Of a stretch of DNA of 64,000 nucleotides, positions 3,145-35,655 are shown piece after piece (positions within the stretch are counted from its first letter, which is position 1; each line of letters begins with the position of its first letter). The position numbers were made by a program, and so were the translations under genes. This stretch comes from Cyanidioschyzon merolae (Eukaryota): NCBI GenBank assembly GCA_000091205.1, contig AP006497.2. The stretch is one strand, 5' to 3'. The notes below the pieces were generated by a model. That model did no database searches. It had not been told where the DNA came from and saw nothing but the letters and a program-made list of their open reading frames with translations.

Positions 3145-4401
3145 ATGGTGCTTGAGGCGACGATGATCTGCATTGACAACTCTGAATGGATGCGTAACGG
3201 GGATGTTGCGCCCAGTCGCATGGATGCGCAGCTCGACGCTGTGAACCTGCTGTGTAACGTCAAGCTAGACGAGAACCCCGAGAACACTGTCGGCCTCCTG
3301 ACCTTGGCAGGTCTACCCGGTGGTGGTGCACTTTGGACAGCGAATCACAGTGCGAGCGCTGCTGCAGAAGGTCGTCCACGTTGGCTTGGAACCGGCGCGG
3401 TTTGCCGGGTTCTCATCACGCAGACGCGCGATCCCGGAAGGGTTCTCTCTGCAATGCACCAGGTAATCGTGGAGGGTGAAGTGGACTTTATAGGTGGTCT
3501 TCAGAAGGCGCAACTGGCGCTGAAGCACCGCCAGAACCGAAATCAGCGCCAGAGGATCATTTGCTTCATCGCAAGCCCCGTTGCTGCAACCGCGGAAGAG
3601 CTGGTCCAGCTCGGGCGCAACCTGAAGAAGAATAACGTGGCGGTGGATGTGGTACTTTTTGGAAGCGAATGGAGTGAGAATGAGGAGAAAATGAAGGGGT
3701 TTATTCAGAGTGTGAACGTGGACGATAATTCGCACCTGATCACGGTACCGCCGGGTACAGCGCTCTTAGCGGAGGCACTGATGACGACGCCGCTCATGCA
3801 GAGTGAGCAGGCACTCATGGCTGGTGCTGCAGGCTCGGACGCTCGTTTAAGTGGGACTGGTATCGGCGCCTTTTCTGGCGGAGCAGCTGATATAGGCGGC
3901 TTTGGCTTCGATCCGAGCGCGGACCCCGAGCTTGCGCTAGCGCTCCAAATGTCACTGGAGGAAGAACGTAATCGGCAAGCAGCAGCTGCAGCGGGAGCAG
4001 GATCAGGAGCAGATGCTGTCGAGAACAATGCTCCGGGATCATCTTCGATGACAATGGAGGTCGTGAACGATCGTTCACAGGCTGCTGCTGTGGATTCTCG
4101 AACGAGTCTCCAGAGCCGTTCGGAGGCTGGCAGCATTGGCCATCGACCTGATTCCTCCGCTGCCGCAACAGCGGATTCCGAAGTGGCCGAGAGCTCCGAT
4201 CTTGGTAATGCGAACAGTGACATCGTCAATGACGAGGACGAACAAATGGATGAAGAACTTCGTCTCGCCATAGAGCTCTCCAAGCAAGAGGCATCCACCG
4301 GTGGACGCCAGCCGCGATCGAGCTCTGGCCAGGCACTGGCCCCCGAGGACCAGTCTCCGGATGACTCAAAGAAGAAATCTGAGCCTCGTGGTAGCACTTG
4401 A
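3145..4401 (+). CDS. RPN10: 26S proteasome non-ATPase regulatory subunit Rpn10/PSMD4 (VWA domain plus UIM region)
   Basis: MVLEATMICIDNSEWMRNGD..., FLSAMHQ, QKAQLALKHRQNRNQRQRII and KKNNVAVDVVLFG match the Rpn10 VWA domain nearly position by position. UIM-like LALALQMSLEEE motifs follow. The ORF ends in TGA. Confidence 0.9.
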   Translation: MVLEATMICIDNSEWMRNGDVAPSRMDAQLDAVNLLCNVKLDENPENTVGLLTLAGLPGGGALWTANHSASAAAEGRPRWLGTGAVCRVLITQTRDPGRVLSAMHQVIVEGEVDFIGGLQKAQLALKHRQNRNQRQRIICFIASPVAATAEELVQLGRNLKKNNVAVDVVLFGSEWSENEEKMKGFIQSVNVDDNSHLITVPPGTALLAEALMTTPLMQSEQALMAGAAGSDARLSGTGIGAFSGGAADIGGFGFDPSADPELALALQMSLEEERNRQAAAAAGAGSGADAVENNAPGSSSMTMEVVNDRSQAAAVDSRTSLQSRSEAGSIGHRPDSSAAATADSEVAESSDLGNANSDIVNDEDEQMDEELRLAIELSKQEASTGGRQPRSSSGQALAPEDQSPDDSKKKSEPRGST

Positions 4402-4526
4402 ACTTGACAGCATAGGAAAATGCGTCCCTGATGGTGCTTCATCGGCTTCCTGTGTTGAAGACAGTGTCCCCGGGTTTTGCACCTTGCGCACGACGATGAC
4501 CCGGTGGTGGCGCCTTGAGGCTAACG

Positions 4527-5549
4527 TTACCGCCGCCGCCGCTGCTGCCGACGACGACGTCGACGTTGCCGCGGCTTTCGTATACGTGCATCAAAGTCGT
4601 TAAACAGTGGCCCTGCGGCAGCAGCAGCAGCAGCAGCAGTAGCAGCGGCACTGGTGATGACTGCGGTATGCAGTCTACGAACGCAGCCGTACATGAATCG
4701 GCGCCCATAAGGTGGCACCTCTACTCTCGACGCCAGCTTGAACAAGCGCTCGGCGAGTTGCTGACGATGCTCTGGTTGAGACAAGTACACGAGCTGGTCT
4801 CGTTGATTTGGTACTGCAGCTGGGGCACGTACCAGCGGTTCCCACAGTCTCTCAAAGGCGCGTCGCATAAGTACTTTGCGGTTGCGCTGCTGCGTGGCGC
4901 TAGCGCGCTCCATCGGCGCAAGATATAGACGTAAGAATGGTTGTACGGCGATATCAACCGGGTGCGTTGAATCAGTGTCCAGGGTAAGTGATTCAAGGCC
5001 GCCCGGCGCTTGACAGAGCACCAGTTCGAGCCACTTGTCGCAGACGTGCAACGCCATCCCGAGTGCTGCGGGTGCCGCTTCGAGATCCAGGTCCGCGCTT
5101 GTCCCTACCAGTGGTTCGAATACGACACGTTCCACAATGCCGGTGAGACGTCGCCAGTGGTCCACCTGATCCACACATAAAGAGGTTGCGGCGCTGAGCG
5201 ACCTGTTTAGCAACGCATAGTACTTGTCCAGCCGTAAATGGTCAATTTCTATCCAGTATCGACAAATTGTCTCCCACATGACCTCAAAATAGAGCCAGTT
5301 GTCCACCGCGAGCCCCAACCACGAACAGAGTCTTTCGAGGGTCCAGTTGATCGCGGACGGTGTGTCGGCGAACCAGAGTGTGTAGTAGAGCGCTCGCCAG
5401 ACCCTTCGCATACCTTTCGGAGAGAGTGGTGCTGGTTCACGTTGGCACAACATCCGCTCTACTTTACGAAGTGCTCGGTTCCGCACTTGCGCATCGGAAG
5501 ATGCCAGTTGCCGCGCGAGCGCTGTCTCTGCAGTTCCTGCGACCGCCAT
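4527..5549 (-). CDS. RRP1: Nop52/RRP1 family ribosomal RNA processing protein
   Basis: N-terminal LASSDAQVRNRALRKVERML...MRRVWRALYYTLWFADTPSAINWT matches the Nop52 signature (LASNEK.VRD.AL..L; LWKGLFYCMWMQDKPL). The poly-Ala/poly-Arg C-terminal tail is encoded by GCN/CGN repeats. Stop is TAA. Confidence 0.75.
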   Translation of the reverse strand: MAVAGTAETALARQLASSDAQVRNRALRKVERMLCQREPAPLSPKGMRRVWRALYYTLWFADTPSAINWTLERLCSWLGLAVDNWLYFEVMWETICRYWIEIDHLRLDKYYALLNRSLSAATSLCVDQVDHWRRLTGIVERVVFEPLVGTSADLDLEAAPAALGMALHVCDKWLELVLCQAPGGLESLTLDTDSTHPVDIAVQPFLRLYLAPMERASATQQRNRKVLMRRAFERLWEPLVRAPAAVPNQRDQLVYLSQPEHRQQLAERLFKLASRVEVPPYGRRFMYGCVRRLHTAVITSAAATAAAAAAAAGPLFNDFDARIRKPRQRRRRRRQQRRRR

Positions 5550-5821
5550 AGTGCTGAACAGCGTTGCAGCGTCCGCTGGGAAGAGACCGGGATTCGAGTC
5601 TCGCGTTACGCACCCGCTCCGGAACTATTCAAGAATATCTCGAGAGCTTGGTGGCTAGTTGCCCGATCCAAACGGCTCAGTTGGTCCAAGTGAAGCGCAG
5701 AAACAACCAGGGTTTCGAGTAAACCAGCACCGTGTCGTTTGGCGGCGGTGTCGCTGGCGTCGCCGCGTTCTCAAGAAGCCGGTTGTTGTCTCGCGGCTCG
5801 TTGGGTTCGTGCCACACCAGC

Positions 5822-6812
5822 ACCAGTTGCCGGGGCTGGGGCGTCATCCAGACTCGTGGATGACTTGCGGGTTTACCAGGTGGCTACGATAGCCAAAAGC
5901 TGTTCACTATGCTATTCGGGAACGCTCAGCTAAAACGGTTGCTGCAGGTGTTCCACGAGATGGAACGCTTTGGCGCGGCTGGGGCGTCATCCATACTCGT
6001 GGATGACTTCCGGGTTTACCAGGTGGCTACGATAGCCAAAAGCTGTTGACTTTGCTATTCGGGAACGCTCAGCTAAAACGGTTGCTGCAGGTGTTCCACG
6101 AGCTGGAACGCTTTGGCGCGGCTGGGGCGTCATCCAGACTCGTGGATGACTTCCGGGTTTACCAGGTGGCTACGATAGCCAAAAGCTGTTCACTACGCTA
6201 TTCGGGAACGCTCAGCTAAAACGGTTGCTGCAGGTGTTCCACGAGCTGGAACGCTTTGGCGCGGCTGGGGCGTCATCCAGACTCGTGGATGACTTCCGGG
6301 TTTACCAGGTGGCTACGATAGCCAAAAGCTGTTCACTACGCTATTCGGGAACGCTCAGCTAAAACGGTTGCTGCAGGTGTTCCACGAGCTGGAACGCTTT
6401 GGCGCGGCTGGGGCGTCATCCAGACTCGTGGATGATTTCCGGGTTTACCAGGTGGCTACGATAGCCAAAAGCTGTTGACTTTGCTATTCGGGAACGCTCA
6501 GCTAAAACGGTTGCTGCAGGTGTTCCACGAGATGGAACGCTTTGGCGCGGCTGGGGCGTCATCCAGACTCGTGGATGACTTCCGGGTTTACCAGGTGGCT
6601 ACGATAGCCAAAAGCTGTTCACTATGCTATTCGGGAACGCTCAGCTAAAACGGTTGCTGCAGGTGTTCCACGAGCTGGAACGCTTTGGCGCGGCTGGGGC
6701 GTCATCCAGACTCGTGGATGACTTCCGGGTTTACCAGGTGGCTACGATAGCCAAAAGCTGTTCACTATGCCATTCGGGAACGCTCAGCTAAAACGGTTGC
6801 TGCAGGTGTTCC
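5822..6812. repeat. 143-bp minisatellite, about 6.9 tandem copies
   Basis: Unit start GCTGGGGCGTCATCCA recurs at 5835, 5978, 6121, 6264, 6407, 6550 and 6693, an exact 143-nt period. A few substitutions occur per unit (C/A, G/C, T/C). Each unit carries the inverted repeat GTCATCCA-GACTCG-TGGATGAC. It lies between the 3' end of the 6788..8605 gene and the 5' end of RRP1. Confidence 0.9.
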
Positions 6813-8605
6813 AGGCGATGCGGCTCGTGAGCGTTCACGGCGGCGGCTGAGCGGCTTGGACCTTCGTTTCGTCCAGCAGTGTCGTTCAATTGGATTTGTT
6901 TGCGCAGTTCAGAGAGCAGTGATGTCAAAGCGAGTCTCATTTCCCGAAAAGCATTGCGATCCGCATTGATGCGGAAGAGTGTTTTGCCACTTGCAGAGCC
7001 TTTTTCTAGCCAGCACCAACCGGCGCTGTGCTCGCAAAGCTGTTGCAGCTGTTGACGAGCATCCTCGTAGCTTTGAGGAGCACTATCGTGTTGTTGACAC
7101 AGAAAAGCGGTCAACTGGTCAAGTTCTACAGATCGGCGAGGTCTACCCAATACGCATGGCGTCTGAAAGAAGCTGTAAACGAGGTCTGCTGCGTGTATGA
7201 GCCGGCGAATATTGAGGCACGTTTCCTCATGACGCCGACTGGATTCTATGCAGTCCCGCTCTGCCGCTCGATCGCGAATGCGTTGAATGAGCTCCGCTGG
7301 TAAGCACCCGTCGATTTCGAGTGTAGCAGAGAGGGCGTCATTCGTGGACCGCAATACAGCGTTGTCTCTTTGCATTCGTTGATCACGTGAATCGACAGTG
7401 GAAACCTGGGAGAAAGACGCTGGGTGCGACTTGCCGGACGCCGACGACTCTGTGACAGGCGATGCGTAACCGACAAGTTCAGGGCTCTGCATGGACGCGC
7501 AACCGTCTACGTCCATTTCTCGACGGAAACTGGCCCCGGGTCGTGGCGCCGACGCAACCGGCGCCTGTGGGGCGCGCTTCCACGGGGTATGCTCTCCGAC
7601 CAACTCGTCTGCCGGAGAAAAATCATCATTCGTCCGCTTTCGCTTTGCGAATGGTTGTGGTGGCGTTGGTGGTACTGTATCGTGGCTCATGTCCTGGGAA
7701 TTGCATCCATCCGCGAAGCGTCGCTTCCGATGAGCGTGTTGCTGTGGCGAATAGGCTGTAGCGTTCGAATCGCCTTCGAGGATCGGCTTCCCGCACGAAG
7801 GCACATCCAGCGGTTGTGATGCGCTTCGGCGCATTGCTTCATCTGAACAAGCAGGTGCGGGCCGTTCCATGGCCTCGAGACGCTCACGAAGCAGCGCGCG
7901 ACGCTTCATAATGCCATAGGCGTCACCGAAGCGGGTAACTTGGACCGAATCCGCTGAGGATTCCGTTCGCATTGAGGAGAACTGCTCCCGCAGCTCAATG
8001 CACAAGTCGGTTTCGCCAGGTCCGAAACGGTGAATCATAAATACCTCTGGAACTAGCCCCAGTAACTGATCCAGTCGCTGCCTTGTGAGCTCCCGCCGAC
8101 ACTTCCACTGAACCACAGCTTGAACTTGCTCGAATGTAGGTCGTGCTTGGCGAGCCCGGAGCAGTAAGCGTGCACTCTCAATGCCATCCATGATTTCGAG
8201 CAACGGCACCCAGTCTTTTTCTGTTACTTTGGTCCTGCATCCAGTGACGGGCGCACTCCAGTGCTCCTGATCCTCGTTGCAAGACCTCGGAGCAGCAATC
8301 GTGTCGTCGTTGCGCACTCCAGTTGTTGAACCATCGAAGGCGAAAACGCTGGACCCAACAGCCTCGGAACAGTTTCGTTCGGAAACTCCAGAAGCAGCGC
8401 TCAGAGCACGACTTGTGGTTTCTGCTCTATCAGCGGCATCCGAAGCCTCCAGTGTCGTCAAGCTCGCAGACCGCTGAGCGGTGTGTGGCTCCTCAGGCCA
8501 GCCCCTGGGGCTCGTTTGCAAATCCCCGTGCTCAGTTTCCTTTCCATTGCGGAATAGAGCATGAACACGCCTCTGCTTCACATTCGAAAAGTAGTTTGAG
8601 ATCAT
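6788..8605 (-). CDS. Cdt1-like DNA replication licensing factor (tentative)
   Basis: 605-aa ORF. The segment RPTFEQVQAVVQWKCRRELTRQRLDQLLGLVPEVFMIHRF resembles the Cdt1 middle-domain signature [20 protein letters not shown]...VYPASYRF. Flanking regions are low complexity. The last codons run into the minisatellite. Confidence 0.4.
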   Translation of the reverse strand: MISNYFSNVKQRRVHALFRNGKETEHGDLQTSPRGWPEEPHTAQRSASLTTLEASDAADRAETTSRALSAASGVSERNCSEAVGSSVFAFDGSTTGVRNDDTIAAPRSCNEDQEHWSAPVTGCRTKVTEKDWVPLLEIMDGIESARLLLRARQARPTFEQVQAVVQWKCRRELTRQRLDQLLGLVPEVFMIHRFGPGETDLCIELREQFSSMRTESSADSVQVTRFGDAYGIMKRRALLRERLEAMERPAPACSDEAMRRSASQPLDVPSCGKPILEGDSNATAYSPQQHAHRKRRFADGCNSQDMSHDTVPPTPPQPFAKRKRTNDDFSPADELVGEHTPWKRAPQAPVASAPRPGASFRREMDVDGCASMQSPELVGYASPVTESSASGKSHPASFSQVSTVDSRDQRMQRDNAVLRSTNDALSATLEIDGCLPAELIQRIRDRAAERDCIESSRRHEETCLNIRRLIHAADLVYSFFQTPCVLGRPRRSVELDQLTAFLCQQHDSAPQSYEDARQQLQQLCEHSAGWCWLEKGSASGKTLFRINADRNAFREMRLALTSLLSELRKQIQLNDTAGRNEGPSRSAAAVNAHEPHRLEHLQQPF

Positions 8606-9729
8606 GGATCGCGCTTACATACGCTCGTGTCCAGAGCAGCCCACACAGAACATGGAATATATCCCCGAGGATGATGAGGCCGTATTCCCGCCCGACCATC
8701 GATGCAGATGCGCGTAACGCCGGAAGCGCCTGTCCCAAAATTTGGCGCGAATCGCGCATGGACCCGTTTGCCGGTGCTACGTGCTGCTTTCGGATTTGCC
8801 TCTCTACTTTACTTGTTCTGTTTAACGGAGCGTTGACAAAGACCAAGCAGCTTGGATTGTGTGCTTGATATAAGCGATTGGAGGAGCATCCATGTCTCGA
8901 CATACCTCCAGGTTTTATGTCGTTTGCTTGTTCTCGTTTTTTTGTGCACGTTCTGGCGTGCGCCCGGTACCCGCAAGGAGCGACCCTGGTACCACGTACA
9001 ACAACGACGTGAATGGGACACGTAGACAGAATGCGTGTGGGATACCAGAGAGAGCGCCGGCTCTAGTTTGTTGATCTATTGACAGTCAAGCATAGGGCAC
9101 GGGGAACGAGTTCCAACTGGGAAGGAGGCTATGCTATCGCCATCTCGTTATGCATTAGGTGGATGATGACGCAGGGTAGCGTGAAGCGCGATGACCATTG
9201 ATTGATCCGACAGTGATTTCCTTAGAAACAATAAATAATGGTACACCATGATCTTGCGCTATTTGTTCATCAGAATCGTTACGAGTGTATACAGAGGGCG
9301 CCCCTGTCCTGCTGGATTGCTCAACGTACCGTGGCAGTGCCTTGCTCCATGCGGGAATCCAGTGCCCGCGGTTCTGGTACCTAATTAACTTTCATTGAAC
9401 CTCTTCAGCGCTTGAAGACAATCCCAGCGCTGAGTACCTAACGATTCCCTTGAGTGCTCAATTGATACGAAACCGCGGGACGTCCAAGGAGCAAATGCCA
9501 TTTCCGTACGTTGATCGATGCGTTCAGGTCTCGATACCGAAGGAGTCTGCGTGTATTGTTGTCGGCAGAATCGTACCGTAGCAAGTCTGTCGCACTCGAC
9601 TGCCGTGGTATCTGGCGTTCAGTCTGCTTACCGCGTGTCATCTCGTGCGTGCGGCTCTGTTCCAGATTCTTCTTCTCTACCCCAACAAGCGTACACTCGT
9701 GCTCGTAATTCTGGTTCGTCGCTCTGAAT

Positions 9730-33945: not shown

Positions 33946-35655
33946 TCACTCTGGAGGTCTCGTCTCCAGCACCGCACATCTCCTGATATTGATGGCAGCG
34001 TTAAAGTCTCGGTTCGCAAACTCCATACGTTTCTTACCATCGTTGGTTGTACTTACTAATGCAAGTAGCCCTCGAAGTTTCGCCCTCCTTTCCATTTGCT
34101 CTTCCGTCAGCGGTCCGTACTTTTTTGCATCCTCAGGGCTCCGCTGGCACTTTTCCATCTCCACTCTCTGGAGCGTGCGCCCCCGCTCATGGTGTGAATG
34201 CGATGTTCGAAACTCATCTATCGGTATTGTAACAAAACGCCGTGCGCACTCCTTATACGTTCTCGTCGTTGGAGCTGGTGCAGTCCCTTTTTGGGTCTTC
34301 CATCGCCCTGCTCCGTACGCTACTACGAGCCTCTGACTTTCATCCTCCTTCAGGGCACTCAACTGATTGAAAAAATTCGCGAACGCCCGCTGCTTCCCAC
34401 AATACAAGTTCATTCGAAGACGAGCCCACCGGGGCTTGGTATACTCCTCCCACAGCGCATCCCAATGGGCAACACGAACTTCCATGAATTTCCGAAAAGC
34501 TTTAAAGTCCGCTCCTCGACTCATCACCTCGCTCAAAGCTTCCAGGTGCTCGTTCATTCCTGAATTTCAAGTCTCGATTTTGTTCCTTGCATTCATGCTT
34601 CCCGATTCTCGATAATATCTCGCTCTCGAGAACCTCAACAGACGCATGTCTTTCTGACATAAGTTACCGTCAGGACCATCTTCCGCACGCTTCGGTGCTG
34701 CGATGGTGATGATATTTGTGTTGCCGGGGTCCGCGCCAATGACAAAGTCGTTATCCTGCACTTTCCGCGTCTCAGGATCTGCTTCTTTCTCATCTTCATC
34801 CTTCGTCACCTCAACGACATGCACGTTATCCTGCACCTGCTGCATCGCAGGATCCTCCTTTTCGTTTTCTTCATCCTTCGCCGCGTCAACGACAAGGTCG
34901 TTATTCTCTACCTCCTGCGTCGCGGGATCCGCCTCCTCCTTTTCCTCATGGTTCGCCGAGGGCGGGACTGGTCGATCTCTCTTCAACCGCCGATAGTGTA
35001 CACACAAGGCTACTCCATCGGTTTCGATTAACCCAGTGGACAACTTTTGCTTGCTCACTCTCAGACGTTTGGAGCTGAAGATATTCTTCCAGGACATCTC
35101 CCGGTTTTCACCGGAAAACTCCTCCCTGCTAACATCGAACTCGGGACTGATCTCCTTCATGATGCCATGAGGGATTCTGGAGTCGATAGTCACGAAATGT
35201 GACTTGATATTGGACATTGGAACGACGTTGAAGCGCTTCTCCTTTAGGACAGCCTTCCTTTCCTCCCACTCTAAATTTTCCCTATTCAGCCTCATCTCTG
35301 CTTTGCGTTCGAGCTCTCGGTCGAGAAATACGAAATATCGCAGGAAAAGGCGATAGTATCTTTCCTTATCTTTTTTCAACTCTGATATCTTGTCTGTTGG
35401 ATTCGCCATCCCCAAGATTGCACGGTGCGCTTGTAGAACCGCGCGGATTACAGAAGCCTCATTCGTGCTCTCGTTTGACCCCTTCTCTCCGGCGAATTCG
35501 ACCTCATCTTGATGCTTACGATCTTTCGTGATGCCATTCATAATCGCCCATTTTCCATTGCGCGATAGGCCCGGGTAGAGTGCAATCACGGCGCGTATCA
35601 TGAAACGTTCGAGGCTCGTTGTCAAATGGTTCTTCAGGTTCGTGAGGTACTTCAT
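33946..35655 (-). pseudogene. TnpB/Fanzor-like RuvC nuclease (OMEGA-family, eukaryotic Fanzor-type) gene, recently pseudogenised (copy A)
   Basis: ORFs 34567..35655 and 33946..34557 share one frame and are split by a single TGA. The first ORF contains the RuvC-I motif DFVIGADPGNTNIITIA. The second contains a TnpB-like zinc-finger region with Cys replaced (FVTIPIDEFRTSHSHHERG, compared with V.KVNPAYTSQTCSCCG) and the RuvC-III hallmark MEFANRDFNAAINIRRCAVLETRP. A second TGA sits where copies B and C have Leu. The same frame stays open upstream to about 36084 (ORF 35794..36084), interrupted by TAA and TGA. The putative RuvC-II Glu appears replaced (LVVAYGAGRW). Confidence 0.7.

What the first reader, a model, noticed from the sequence alone, without database searches (positions are those of the whole stretch)
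5822..6812. 143-bp minisatellite (~7 units) with an embedded perfect 8-bp inverted repeat, in the RRP1 promoter and Cdt1-like 3' region
Exact 143-nt periodicity with only about 5 variable positions per unit implies recent expansion or homogenisation. Each unit contains GTCATCCA-GACTCG-TGGATGAC (8-bp stem, 6-nt loop) and a GGCTA-CGA-TAGCC mini-palindrome. The unit length is not a multiple of three, so it is not a coding repeat. It could be a regulatory array, an origin or nucleosome-positioning element, or a family dispersed elsewhere (for example subtelomeric).
Basis: seen in the sequence. Interest (0 to 1): 0.5.

Follow-up and report, generated by a model that had tools for sequence, protein, structure and literature searches.

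The report
Tandemly repeated gene 3'-end cassette
A real but ordinary 1-kb minisatellite in the red alga Cyanidioschyzon merolae: the last seven codons, stop codon, 3' UTR and poly(A) signal of a Cdt1-like gene are copied head-to-tail seven times in front of the next gene.

Summary
There are 6.9 head-to-tail copies of a 143-bp unit at 5827-6813, about 98% alike, and each carries an 8-bp/6-nt hairpin and a 6-bp/3-nt mini-palindrome.

The window is Cyanidioschyzon merolae 10D, chromosome 15. The array lies between two minus-strand genes: the Cdt1-like CMO238C (6788-8605) and the Nop52/RRP1 gene (4527-5549).

Read on the gene-sense strand, each unit holds the last 7 codons plus TAG of CMO238C, then 54 nt of 3' UTR, then one UAAA, then the hairpin 8 nt further on. 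UAAA is the published C. merolae poly(A) signal. These seven UAAAs are the only ones on that strand before the Nop52 coding sequence. The array is therefore a tandem duplication of the gene's 3'-end cassette.

- The array is present, with at least 2-3 units, at the same locus in wild Cyanidioschyzon contigs that are 99.3-99.6% identical in the flanks.
- It is absent from two syntenic sister lineages.
- No copy was found elsewhere in the window, in a metagenome scan, in a viral scan or in a protein-database proxy search.
- No Rfam family or tRNA matches, and the hairpin shows no compensatory changes.

My verdict is a locus-specific, probably near-neutral minisatellite that may supply redundant poly(A) sites. 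Regulatory, origin and dispersed-family readings are unsupported. Interest is low.

The parts
5827..6813 (-). 143-bp tandem array, 6.9 copies. Gene-sense units are u1 6812-6670, u2 6669-6527, u3 6526-6384, u4 6383-6241, u5 6240-6098, u6 6097-5955 and u7 5954-~5833; u7 then has a degenerate tail to ~5812.
   Evidence: TRF period 143, 97% matches, score 1876; exact 143-nt spacings; unit table
6788..8605 (-). Cdt1-like gene CMO238C (BAM81585.1, 605 aa). Its last 7 codons (EHLQQPF) and TAG stop (6790-6788) form positions 1-25 of the first repeat unit.
   Evidence: The ORF is identical to P0045 = CYME_CMO238C. Pfam CDT1_C E=3e-4 and CDT1 E=0.011; orthologue L011 passes the CDT1 cut-off.
6645..6647 (-). 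Copy of the TAG stop codon with the preceding 22 nt of coding sequence in unit u2. Equivalent copies lie at 6502-6504, 6359-6361, 6216-6218, 6073-6075 and 5930-5932.
   Evidence: Unit register; the TAG is invariant in all 33 units examined, including environmental contigs
6730..6733 (-). First UAAA (the C. merolae poly(A) signal) after the CMO238C stop codon, 54 nt downstream. One copy per unit: also 6587-6590, 6444-6447, 6301-6304, 6158-6161, 6015-6018 and 5872-5875.
   Evidence: Minus-strand TAAA positions. These are the only UAAAs on that strand until 5466, inside the Nop52 coding sequence. UAAA is the signal for 93% of primary sites, with cleavage 3-35 nt (mean 17) downstream (PMC8831791). 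Orthologues have their first UAAA at +68 and +73.
6701..6722 (.). 8-bp stem / 6-nt loop inverted repeat GTCATCCA-N6-TGGATGAC, starting 8 nt after the UAAA, which is the expected cleavage zone. Copies also at 6558-6579, 6415-6436 (first stem base changed), 6272-6293, 6129-6150, 5986-6007 (loop changed) and 5843-5864.
   Evidence: 7 matches against 0 expected; DNA hairpin -6.5 kcal/mol; variants are one-sided with no compensatory change
6739..6753 (.). Mini-palindrome TGGCTA-CGA-TAGCCA (6-bp stem, 3-nt loop), one per unit at 143-nt intervals down to 5881-5895.
   Evidence: Sequence; folds as 6 bp in RNA and DNA predictions; invariant in all units
5969..5976 (+). TTTGGCGC, which matches the E2F consensus TTTSSCGC, at each of the six unit-unit junctions. 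Copies also at 6112, 6255, 6398, 6541 and 6684. Significance unproven.
   Evidence: Pattern scan: 27 sites in the window against 15.7 +/- 3.7 expected; the excess is the six array copies
5550..5826 (-). Unique 277-nt spacer between the array and the Nop52/RRP1 start codon. It has no UAAA on the gene-sense strand and presumably holds the Nop52 core promoter and 5' UTR.
   Evidence: Sequence; conserved at >99% in environmental contigs
4527..5549 (-). Nop52/RRP1-family gene (BAM81584.1, 340 aa), downstream neighbour in the same orientation.
   Evidence: Pfam Nop52 E=1.5e-31; exact match to the C. merolae 10D protein

Best explanation
The array is a locus-specific minisatellite in Cyanidioschyzon merolae. 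It arose by tandem duplication, followed by unequal exchange or replication slippage, of a 143-bp segment that is the 3'-end cassette of the Cdt1-like gene CMO238C. The cassette contains the last 7 codons, the TAG stop, about 54 nt of 3' UTR, the UAAA poly(A) signal, the downstream cleavage zone (which happens to hold an 8-bp palindrome) and about 30 nt beyond it.

**Shown**
- The structure and reading register of the unit.
- Its single-locus distribution in all data available here.
- Its presence in wild relatives of strain 10D.
- Its absence from sister lineages.

**Inferred**
- The CMO238C mRNA is normally cleaved and polyadenylated in the first unit, about 17 nt after the UAAA at 6733-6730, near 6700-6725.
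- The six further units are redundant copies. At most they offer back-up or alternative poly(A) sites every 143 nt, and they push the Nop52/RRP1 promoter 858 bp further from the upstream gene.
- The hairpin and mini-palindrome are passengers of the duplicated segment, not selected elements.
- The array is probably close to neutral.
For: **Identity of the window.** It is C. merolae 10D: three window proteins are exact matches, on a 902,900-bp chromosome, and the ORF at 6788-8605 is identical to CYME_CMO238C.

**Array structure.**
- Period 143, 6.9 copies, 97% matches.
- The unit starts 22 nt before the TAG of CMO238C, and every unit repeats ...GGAACACCTGCAGCAACCGTTTTAG.

**Poly(A) signal.**
- There is exactly one UAAA per unit on the gene-sense strand.
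- No other UAAA occurs between the stop codon and the Nop52 coding sequence.
- UAAA is the C. merolae poly(A) signal in 93% of primary sites, with cleavage a mean of 17 nt downstream (PMC8831791).
- The first UAAA after the orthologous stop codon lies at a similar distance in two other cyanidiophytes: +55 here, +68 and +73 there.

**Relatives.**
- Gene order Cdt1-like -> Nop52 <- RPN10 is conserved in L011 and in Cyanidiococcus L013. Their intergenic spacers are 378 and 503 bp, with no tandem repeat and no similarity to the unit.
- 1238 bp minus six units is 380 bp, the ancestral spacer size.

**Wild contigs.**
- Seventeen environmental contigs, 99.3-99.6% identical in the flanks where measured, carry 2-3 units with the same junction at the same locus.
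- Two contigs show at least 3 units (L008, L014).
- Several contigs break at the array (L010, L014, L020, L023, L024).

**No selection signal.**
- Hairpin variants are one-sided, affecting the first stem base, the penultimate stem base and the loop.
- The hairpin is no less variable than the rest of the unit.

**No known RNA.** There is no Rfam match at E<=10 apart from one chance hit, and no tRNA.
Against: - No transcript 3'-end data could be consulted, so use of the UAAA in unit 1, or in any unit, is inferred from a published genome-wide rule and not observed.
- A TAAA is expected by chance in about 22% of 143-nt stretches on a given strand (101-116 per 64 kb).
- The unit folds somewhat better than shuffled controls on both strands (z -1.8 to -3.8). 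This leaves room for a structural role.
- The six perfect E2F-consensus sites could be functional.
- The whole C. merolae genome could not be searched, so single-locus status rests on 64 kb plus indirect searches. The metagenome scan needed an exact 22-mer, and most environmental units would fail it.
- Copy numbers in short-read contigs (2-3) may be collapsed, so copy-number polymorphism is unproven.
Confidence: 0.72

Rival explanations
1. The array is a cis-regulatory array for the flanking genes. The six TTTGGCGC (E2F-consensus) sites, the seven TGACG-containing palindromes, or both, bind transcription factors. This would couple Nop52/RRP1 or the Cdt1-like gene to the cell cycle, with copy number setting the strength.
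For: - TTTGGCGC matches TTTSSCGC exactly at all six junctions.
- The same 8-mer sits 136-143 nt upstream of the CMO238C ATG.
- CDT1 is a classical E2F target in animals (PMC11388403), and C. merolae has an E2F that has been studied experimentally (PMC11376382).
- The last unit ends only 277 nt upstream of the Nop52 ATG.
Against: - Outside the array the motif count (21) is within chance (15.7 +/- 3.7). One occurrence per 143-nt unit has roughly a 4-5% chance, and I found it after the fact.
- The array is downstream of the Cdt1-like gene, not upstream.
- Nop52 is not a typical E2F target.
- Orthologous spacers in L011 and L013 have no such motif.
- No binding data are available.
Confidence: 0.1
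2. The array is a tandem cluster of small structured RNA genes, such as snoRNA-like RNAs, or some other structured RNA element, with one copy per unit.
For: - The units fold better than shuffles on both strands (z -1.8 to -3.8).
- The unit contains GGAUGA and CUGA strings about 67 nt apart on the gene-sense strand, seen in the sequence.
- Tandem snoRNA arrays are known in other protists (my own knowledge).
Against: - No Rfam family matches at E<=10 except a 10.9-bit chance match to a bacterial sRNA.
- No terminal stem flanks the C-like and D-like boxes, and the C-like box lacks the canonical U (sequence inspection).
- Hairpin variants are not compensatory.
- Nothing is conserved in the orthologous spacers.
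- The unit is explained by the gene's own 3' end.
Confidence: 0.04
3. The array is one member of a dispersed or satellite family (subtelomeric, centromeric or transposon-derived) present at many sites in the genome.
For: None was found. The whole genome could not be searched, so this cannot be formally excluded.
Against: - There is no second copy in the 64-kb window, even at word size 7.
- The only metagenome match is the same locus.
- There is no viral match.
- The only unit-derived ORF in the protein collection comes from the same locus.
- The unit overlaps the coding end of a unique gene.
- It has no terminal inverted repeats or target-site duplications.
Confidence: 0.03
4. The array is an assembly artefact of the reference genome.
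For: None.
Against: - Independent environmental assemblies from JGI, ENA and Logan contain the same unit-unit junction, with 2-3 units.
- The 10D genome was finished gap-free from BACs (PMC1955436).
Confidence: 0.01

Closest known systems
Minisatellite / VNTR in a gene's 3' UTR or flank (for example the human SLC6A3/DAT1 40-bp 3'-UTR VNTR; from my own knowledge)
   Same: It is a head-to-tail array of a unit tens to hundreds of bp long, at a single locus, in or next to a 3' UTR. Units are nearly identical, and variants shared between non-adjacent units point to unequal exchange or conversion. Copy number probably differs between strains.
   Different: The unit (143 bp) is at the long end of the range. 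It includes the end of the coding sequence, the stop codon and the poly(A) signal, so the whole 3'-end module is multiplied. Copy-number polymorphism is not yet proven here.
Tandem alternative polyadenylation sites in C. merolae (PMC8831791)
   Same: Several UAAA signals lie in series downstream of one stop codon. 63% of C. merolae genes use two or more sites.
   Different: Here the serial signals are exact duplicates at a fixed 143-nt spacing, created by a repeat. Their use has not been observed.
Satellite DNA with nucleosome-sized units
   Same: The unit length (143 bp) is close to one nucleosome core, and the units are arranged in tandem.
   Different: There are only 7 units at one euchromatic intergenic site. 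The composition is not AT-rich, there is no evidence of other loci, and the unit derives from a gene end.
E2F-site clusters in promoters of replication genes
   Same: Six exact TTTGGCGC sites lie next to a Cdt1-like gene, which also has one such site in its own upstream region.
   Different: The sites lie 3' of that gene. They are explained by copying of a single occurrence. They are not conserved in orthologous spacers, and binding is untested.

Membership tests
Minisatellite / VNTR | Head-to-tail tandem copies of a unit of roughly 10 to a few hundred bp | tested here: met
   Period 143, 6.9 copies, 0% indels
Minisatellite / VNTR | Confined to one locus or a few loci; array of about 0.1-20 kb | tested here: met
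   The array is 987 bp. No other copy was found in the window, in the metagenome or viral scans, or in the protein proxy search. The whole genome was not searchable.
Minisatellite / VNTR | Copy number varies between individuals or strains | tested here: inconclusive
   10D has 7 units. Environmental contigs show 2 or 3, and contigs break at the array. Short-read assemblies (for example k141) collapse 143-bp repeats, so these counts are not reliable.
Functional poly(A) site cassette (C. merolae type) | UAAA 3-35 nt upstream of the cleavage site, downstream of the stop codon | tested here: met
   One UAAA per unit, the first 54 nt after the TAG. There are no others before the next coding sequence. 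The rule comes from PMC8831791.
Functional poly(A) site cassette (C. merolae type) | Observed mRNA 3' ends at the site | not testable with these tools
   No read-level transcript data are available. The paper's held supplement lists only probe oligos. No environmental contig ends in a poly(A) tail.
Known structured RNA families (Rfam), including snoRNAs and tRNA-derived elements | Match to a covariance model or a tRNA model | tested here: not met
   cmscan at E<=10 gives only a 10.9-bit chance hit to isrG at the array edge. ARAGORN finds nothing.
Structured RNA or protein-binding hairpin under selection | Pairing maintained by compensatory changes, or the stem more conserved than its surroundings | tested here: not met
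   Across 33 units, three hairpin positions vary (stem base 1, stem base 21, loop). All changes are one-sided. The hairpin has 3 variable sites in 22 nt, against 11 in the other 100 nt of positions 1-122.
Dispersed repeat / transposon-derived family | Copies at multiple unrelated loci; terminal inverted repeats or target-site duplications | tested here: not met
   All 19 loci recovered with the unit are the same Cdt1-like/Nop52 spacer. The edges of the array are a coding sequence and a degenerate unit.
E2F-responsive element cluster | TTTSSCGC sites enriched beyond chance and bound by E2F | tested here: inconclusive
   The motif is exact six times, but the six are copies of one occurrence. The background count is at the chance level. 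Binding is not testable here.
   The window protein scores CDT1_C 21.7 bits (cut-off 25) and CDT1 16.5 bits (cut-off 22.6). Orthologue L011 scores CDT1 25.4 bits, above the cut-off. The domain order is the same in all three. No PDB sequence hit.

The most novel reading that the evidence does not exclude
The seven-fold repeat of a complete stop codon / 3' UTR / UAAA / palindrome cassette is maintained because it does a job in this extremely compact genome. One possibility is a fail-safe multi-site terminator that insulates the Nop52/RRP1 promoter from read-through of the cell-cycle-regulated Cdt1-like gene. Another is a copy-number-tunable cluster of E2F-type sites shared by both genes. Strain-to-strain copy number would then set the expression level.
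Probability: 0.08. Interest if true: 0.4.

Novelty: new member of a known kind. Interest (0 to 1): 0.13.

Why it matters
It matters little beyond annotation. C. merolae is valued for its minimal, repeat-poor, fully finished genome, so a 1-kb minisatellite is a modest curiosity.

- It could serve as a strain-typing marker (VNTR) for Cyanidioschyzon populations.
- It is a natural test case for how serial identical UAAA poly(A) signals are used.
- It breaks short-read assemblies at this locus.

If the array were shown to act as an insulator, a terminator or an E2F-site cluster, it would be a small, genetically tractable example of regulation by repeat copy number. Nothing found here requires that.

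Tried and rejected
1. **Transcript ends from contig ends.** I tried to read transcript starts and ends from the ends of environmental contigs, some of which may be metatranscriptome assemblies. Ends near 5670-5681 coincide with a T/C SNP. Other shared ends fall inside coding sequences. No contig carries a poly(A) tail. I rejected these as evidence.

2. **C/D-box snoRNA reading.** GGAUGA and CUGA lie about 67 nt apart on the gene-sense strand. There is no terminal stem, the C box is non-canonical and Rfam finds nothing. Rejected.

3. **Homology of the unit to orthologous spacers.** L011 has ATCCA-N8-TGGAT and shares CATCCACG with the unit. BLAST finds nothing above chance, and a shared 8-mer between a 143-nt unit and a 380-nt spacer is expected about 0.8 times. 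Rejected.

4. **The 45-57-aa plus-strand ORFs that recur in each unit.** They have no homologue in 5.8 billion protein clusters apart from one ORF call at the same locus. They are not genes.

5. **Supplement of the polyadenylation paper.** It holds only rRNA-depletion probe sequences and no per-gene poly(A) sites.

6. **Exact look-up of the 605-aa protein.** It returned nothing, although the ORF is identical to CMO238C. This is a gap in the index and carries no biological meaning.

7. **Higher-order periodicity.** u3 and u6 share A46/C50, u4 and u5 share G45, and u2 and u6 share T138. This gives no clean multi-unit block structure.

Full report
**Observation.** The array is real.
- Tandem Repeats Finder reports one array at 5827-6813: period 143, 6.9 copies, 97% matches, no indels, score 1876.
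- An independent repeat search gives six start-to-start spacings of exactly 143 nt.
- The six full units are on average 97.8% identical pairwise (96.5-100%).
- Each unit differs from the consensus at 0-4 positions.
- The 22-nt inverted repeat GTCATCCA-GACTCG-TGGATGAC occurs seven times, against none in shuffled sequence. Five copies are exact, one has a loop change and one has a change in the outermost stem base.
- The second palindrome is present in all units and is in fact 6 bp + 3 nt: TGGCTA-CGA-TAGCCA.
- All six reading frames of the unit carry stop codons.
- The short ORFs that recur in the units have no homologues among 5.8 billion protein clusters, apart from one ORF call at this same locus.

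**Where we are.**
- Three proteins encoded in the window are exact matches to Cyanidioschyzon merolae strain 10D proteins on a 902,900-bp chromosome: BAM81583 (RPN10), BAM81584 and BAM81587.
- The 605-aa ORF at 6788-8605 (minus strand) is identical to CYME_CMO238C, which places the window on chromosome 15.
- That protein and its two orthologues carry weak CDT1 and CDT1_C matches in the correct order. One orthologue is above Pfam's cut-off. 'Cdt1-like' is therefore reasonable.
- The next gene, 4527-5549, also on the minus strand, is a clear Nop52/RRP1 family member (E=1.5e-31).
- The array fills most of the 1238-bp spacer between these two co-oriented genes. A unique 277-nt stretch separates the array from the Nop52 start codon.

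**What the unit is.** Read on the strand of the genes, every unit starts GGAACACCTGCAGCAACCGTTTTAG. In the first unit this is the real end of CMO238C: codons for EHLQQPF plus the TAG at 6790-6788. After that come:
- 54 nt, including the mini-palindrome;
- a single UAAA;
- 7 nt further on, the 8-bp hairpin;
- about 30 nt up to the next unit.

UAAA is the experimentally derived poly(A) signal of C. merolae. It is found upstream of 93% of primary cleavage sites, with cleavage 3-35 nt (mean 17 nt) downstream (PMC8831791).

On the gene-sense strand the seven UAAAs of the array (6733, 6590, 6447, 6304, 6161, 6018, 5875) are the only ones between the CMO238C stop codon and a site inside the Nop52 coding sequence.

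In two other cyanidiophytes with the same gene order, the first UAAA after the orthologous stop codon lies at a very similar distance: +68 and +73, against +55 here.

The unit is therefore the 3'-end cassette of CMO238C: end of the coding sequence, stop codon, short 3' UTR, poly(A) signal and cleavage zone. The array is that cassette copied seven times. That the first UAAA is the one actually used is an inference from the published rule. I could not look at transcript ends.

**Evolutionary setting.**
- The gene order Cdt1-like -> Nop52 <- RPN10 is conserved in an unnamed cyanidiophyte assembly (L011, GCA_041825655.1; Nop52 58% identical) and in Cyanidiococcus yangmingshanensis (L013).
- Their Cdt1-like-to-Nop52 spacers are 378 and 503 bp. 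They contain no tandem repeat and have no detectable similarity to the unit.
- Removing six units from the C. merolae spacer leaves 380 bp, so the array is an insertion-by-duplication specific to the C. merolae lineage.
- Seventeen environmental contigs (JGI, ENA, Logan) carry the same unit-unit junction at the same locus, with two or three units. The ten that were aligned to the window are 99.3-99.6% identical to 10D in the flanks. At least some probably come from Yellowstone, where a 10D-like Cyanidioschyzon dominates (PMC11662350).
- L008 has three units, and L014 begins with a junction followed by two units, so at least three exist in the wild.
- Several contigs stop at or inside the array (L010, L014, L020, L023, L024).
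- These are short-read assemblies (some with k=141) that cannot resolve a 143-bp repeat. The lower counts may be collapse, and copy-number polymorphism is likely but unproven.
- Units differ from each other by about 2.2%, while 10D and the wild contigs differ by only 0.4-0.7% in the flanks. The array is therefore older than that split and is not a very recent burst.
- Variants shared by non-adjacent units (u3/u6, u2/u6, u4/u5) indicate unequal exchange or conversion.

**Is the unit found elsewhere?** I found no evidence that it is.
- A sensitive BLAST of a unit dimer finds nothing beyond chance in the other 63 kb of the window.
- The single hit of an exact 22-mer scan of the metagenome collection is the same locus, on a contig that ends in the array.
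- A viral-contig scan is empty.
- A protein search with the unit-encoded ORF, used as a proxy for DNA search in collections I cannot scan, returns only one ORF, from the same locus.
- Limitations: the complete genome could not be searched, and the exact-match scan would miss most variant units.

**Are the hairpins special?** Probably not.
- Perfect 8-bp stems with 3-8 nt loops occur nine more times in the window, about once per 7 kb. One in a 143-nt unit has about a 2% prior chance, and its multiplicity is due to copying.
- Across 33 units from 10D and the environment, the hairpin has three variable positions (first stem base, penultimate stem base, one loop base). All changes are one-sided and none is compensatory. 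The hairpin is no better conserved than the rest of the unit.
- The units fold somewhat better than shuffled controls on both strands (z -1.8 to -3.8), as expected for a sequence with two palindromes.
- Rfam gives no match at E<=10 other than a 10.9-bit chance hit at the array edge, and there are no tRNA-like elements.

**A lead that remains open.** Each unit-unit junction contains TTTGGCGC, an exact match to the E2F consensus TTTSSCGC (six copies). The same 8-mer lies 136-143 nt upstream of the CMO238C start codon. Cdt1 genes are E2F targets in animals (PMC11388403). However:
- outside the array the motif occurs at the chance rate (21 against 15.7 +/- 3.7);
- the array is 3' of the Cdt1-like gene;
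- the orthologous spacers lack the motif;
- I noticed it after the fact.

I rate a regulatory role at about 10%.

**Verdict.** This is a genuine, single-locus minisatellite formed from the 3'-end cassette of the Cdt1-like gene CMO238C, sitting upstream of Nop52/RRP1 in C. merolae.
- The most likely functional consequence is a series of redundant poly(A) sites at 143-nt spacing, plus an extra 858 bp between two tandem genes.
- It is probably close to neutral.
- It is a new instance of a well-known kind of sequence and of low general interest. It could be useful as a strain marker and as a natural test of serial poly(A) signals.
- The decisive checks are a whole-genome BLAST, mapping of existing long-read mRNA data, sizing of the array in strains, and deletion by homologous recombination.

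Noticed in passing
window 8741-8748: An exact E2F-consensus site (TTTGGCGC) lies 136-143 nt upstream of the start codon of the Cdt1-like gene CMO238C. The orthologue in L011 has GCGCGAAA at -296, and L013 has none within 500 nt. This fits Cdt1 being an E2F target, but a single site is within chance.
   Followed up: partly
L018 1-137 (= window ~8515-8596); protein P0044: Some wild Cyanidioschyzon contigs encode a 617-aa rather than a 605-aa Cdt1-like protein. The difference is an in-frame tandem duplication near the N-terminus.
   Followed up: no
window 4618-4650: A (GCA)11 repeat encodes the poly-alanine tract near the C-terminus of Nop52/RRP1 on the minus strand. Cluster members of 335-342 aa indicate that the tract is length-polymorphic in natural populations.
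   Followed up: partly
window 34749-34957: A 75-bp repeat with 2.8 copies (77% matches) lies inside the ORF 34567-35655 on the minus strand. It is a 25-aa coding repeat.
   Followed up: no
L013 4584-4775 (Cyanidiococcus yangmingshanensis VWRR01000004.1): A 96-bp tandem duplication with 2 copies (98% identical) lies 29 nt downstream of the stop codon of a minus-strand gene (4804-5826). It is another tandem duplication in a gene's 3' flank, in a related alga. It has no UAAA on the gene-sense strand.
   Followed up: partly
window 4401-4527: Nop52/RRP1 (minus strand) and RPN10 (plus strand) are convergent, with only 125 nt between their stop codons. No UAAA occurs on the minus strand within 600 nt after the Nop52 stop, so its 3' end must overlap the RPN10 gene or use a non-UAAA signal.
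   Followed up: no
window ~5668; ends of L005, L006, L022: Several environmental contigs end within about 12 nt of a T/C polymorphism in the spacer upstream of Nop52. These contig ends reflect assembly bubbles and are not transcript boundaries.
   Followed up: yes
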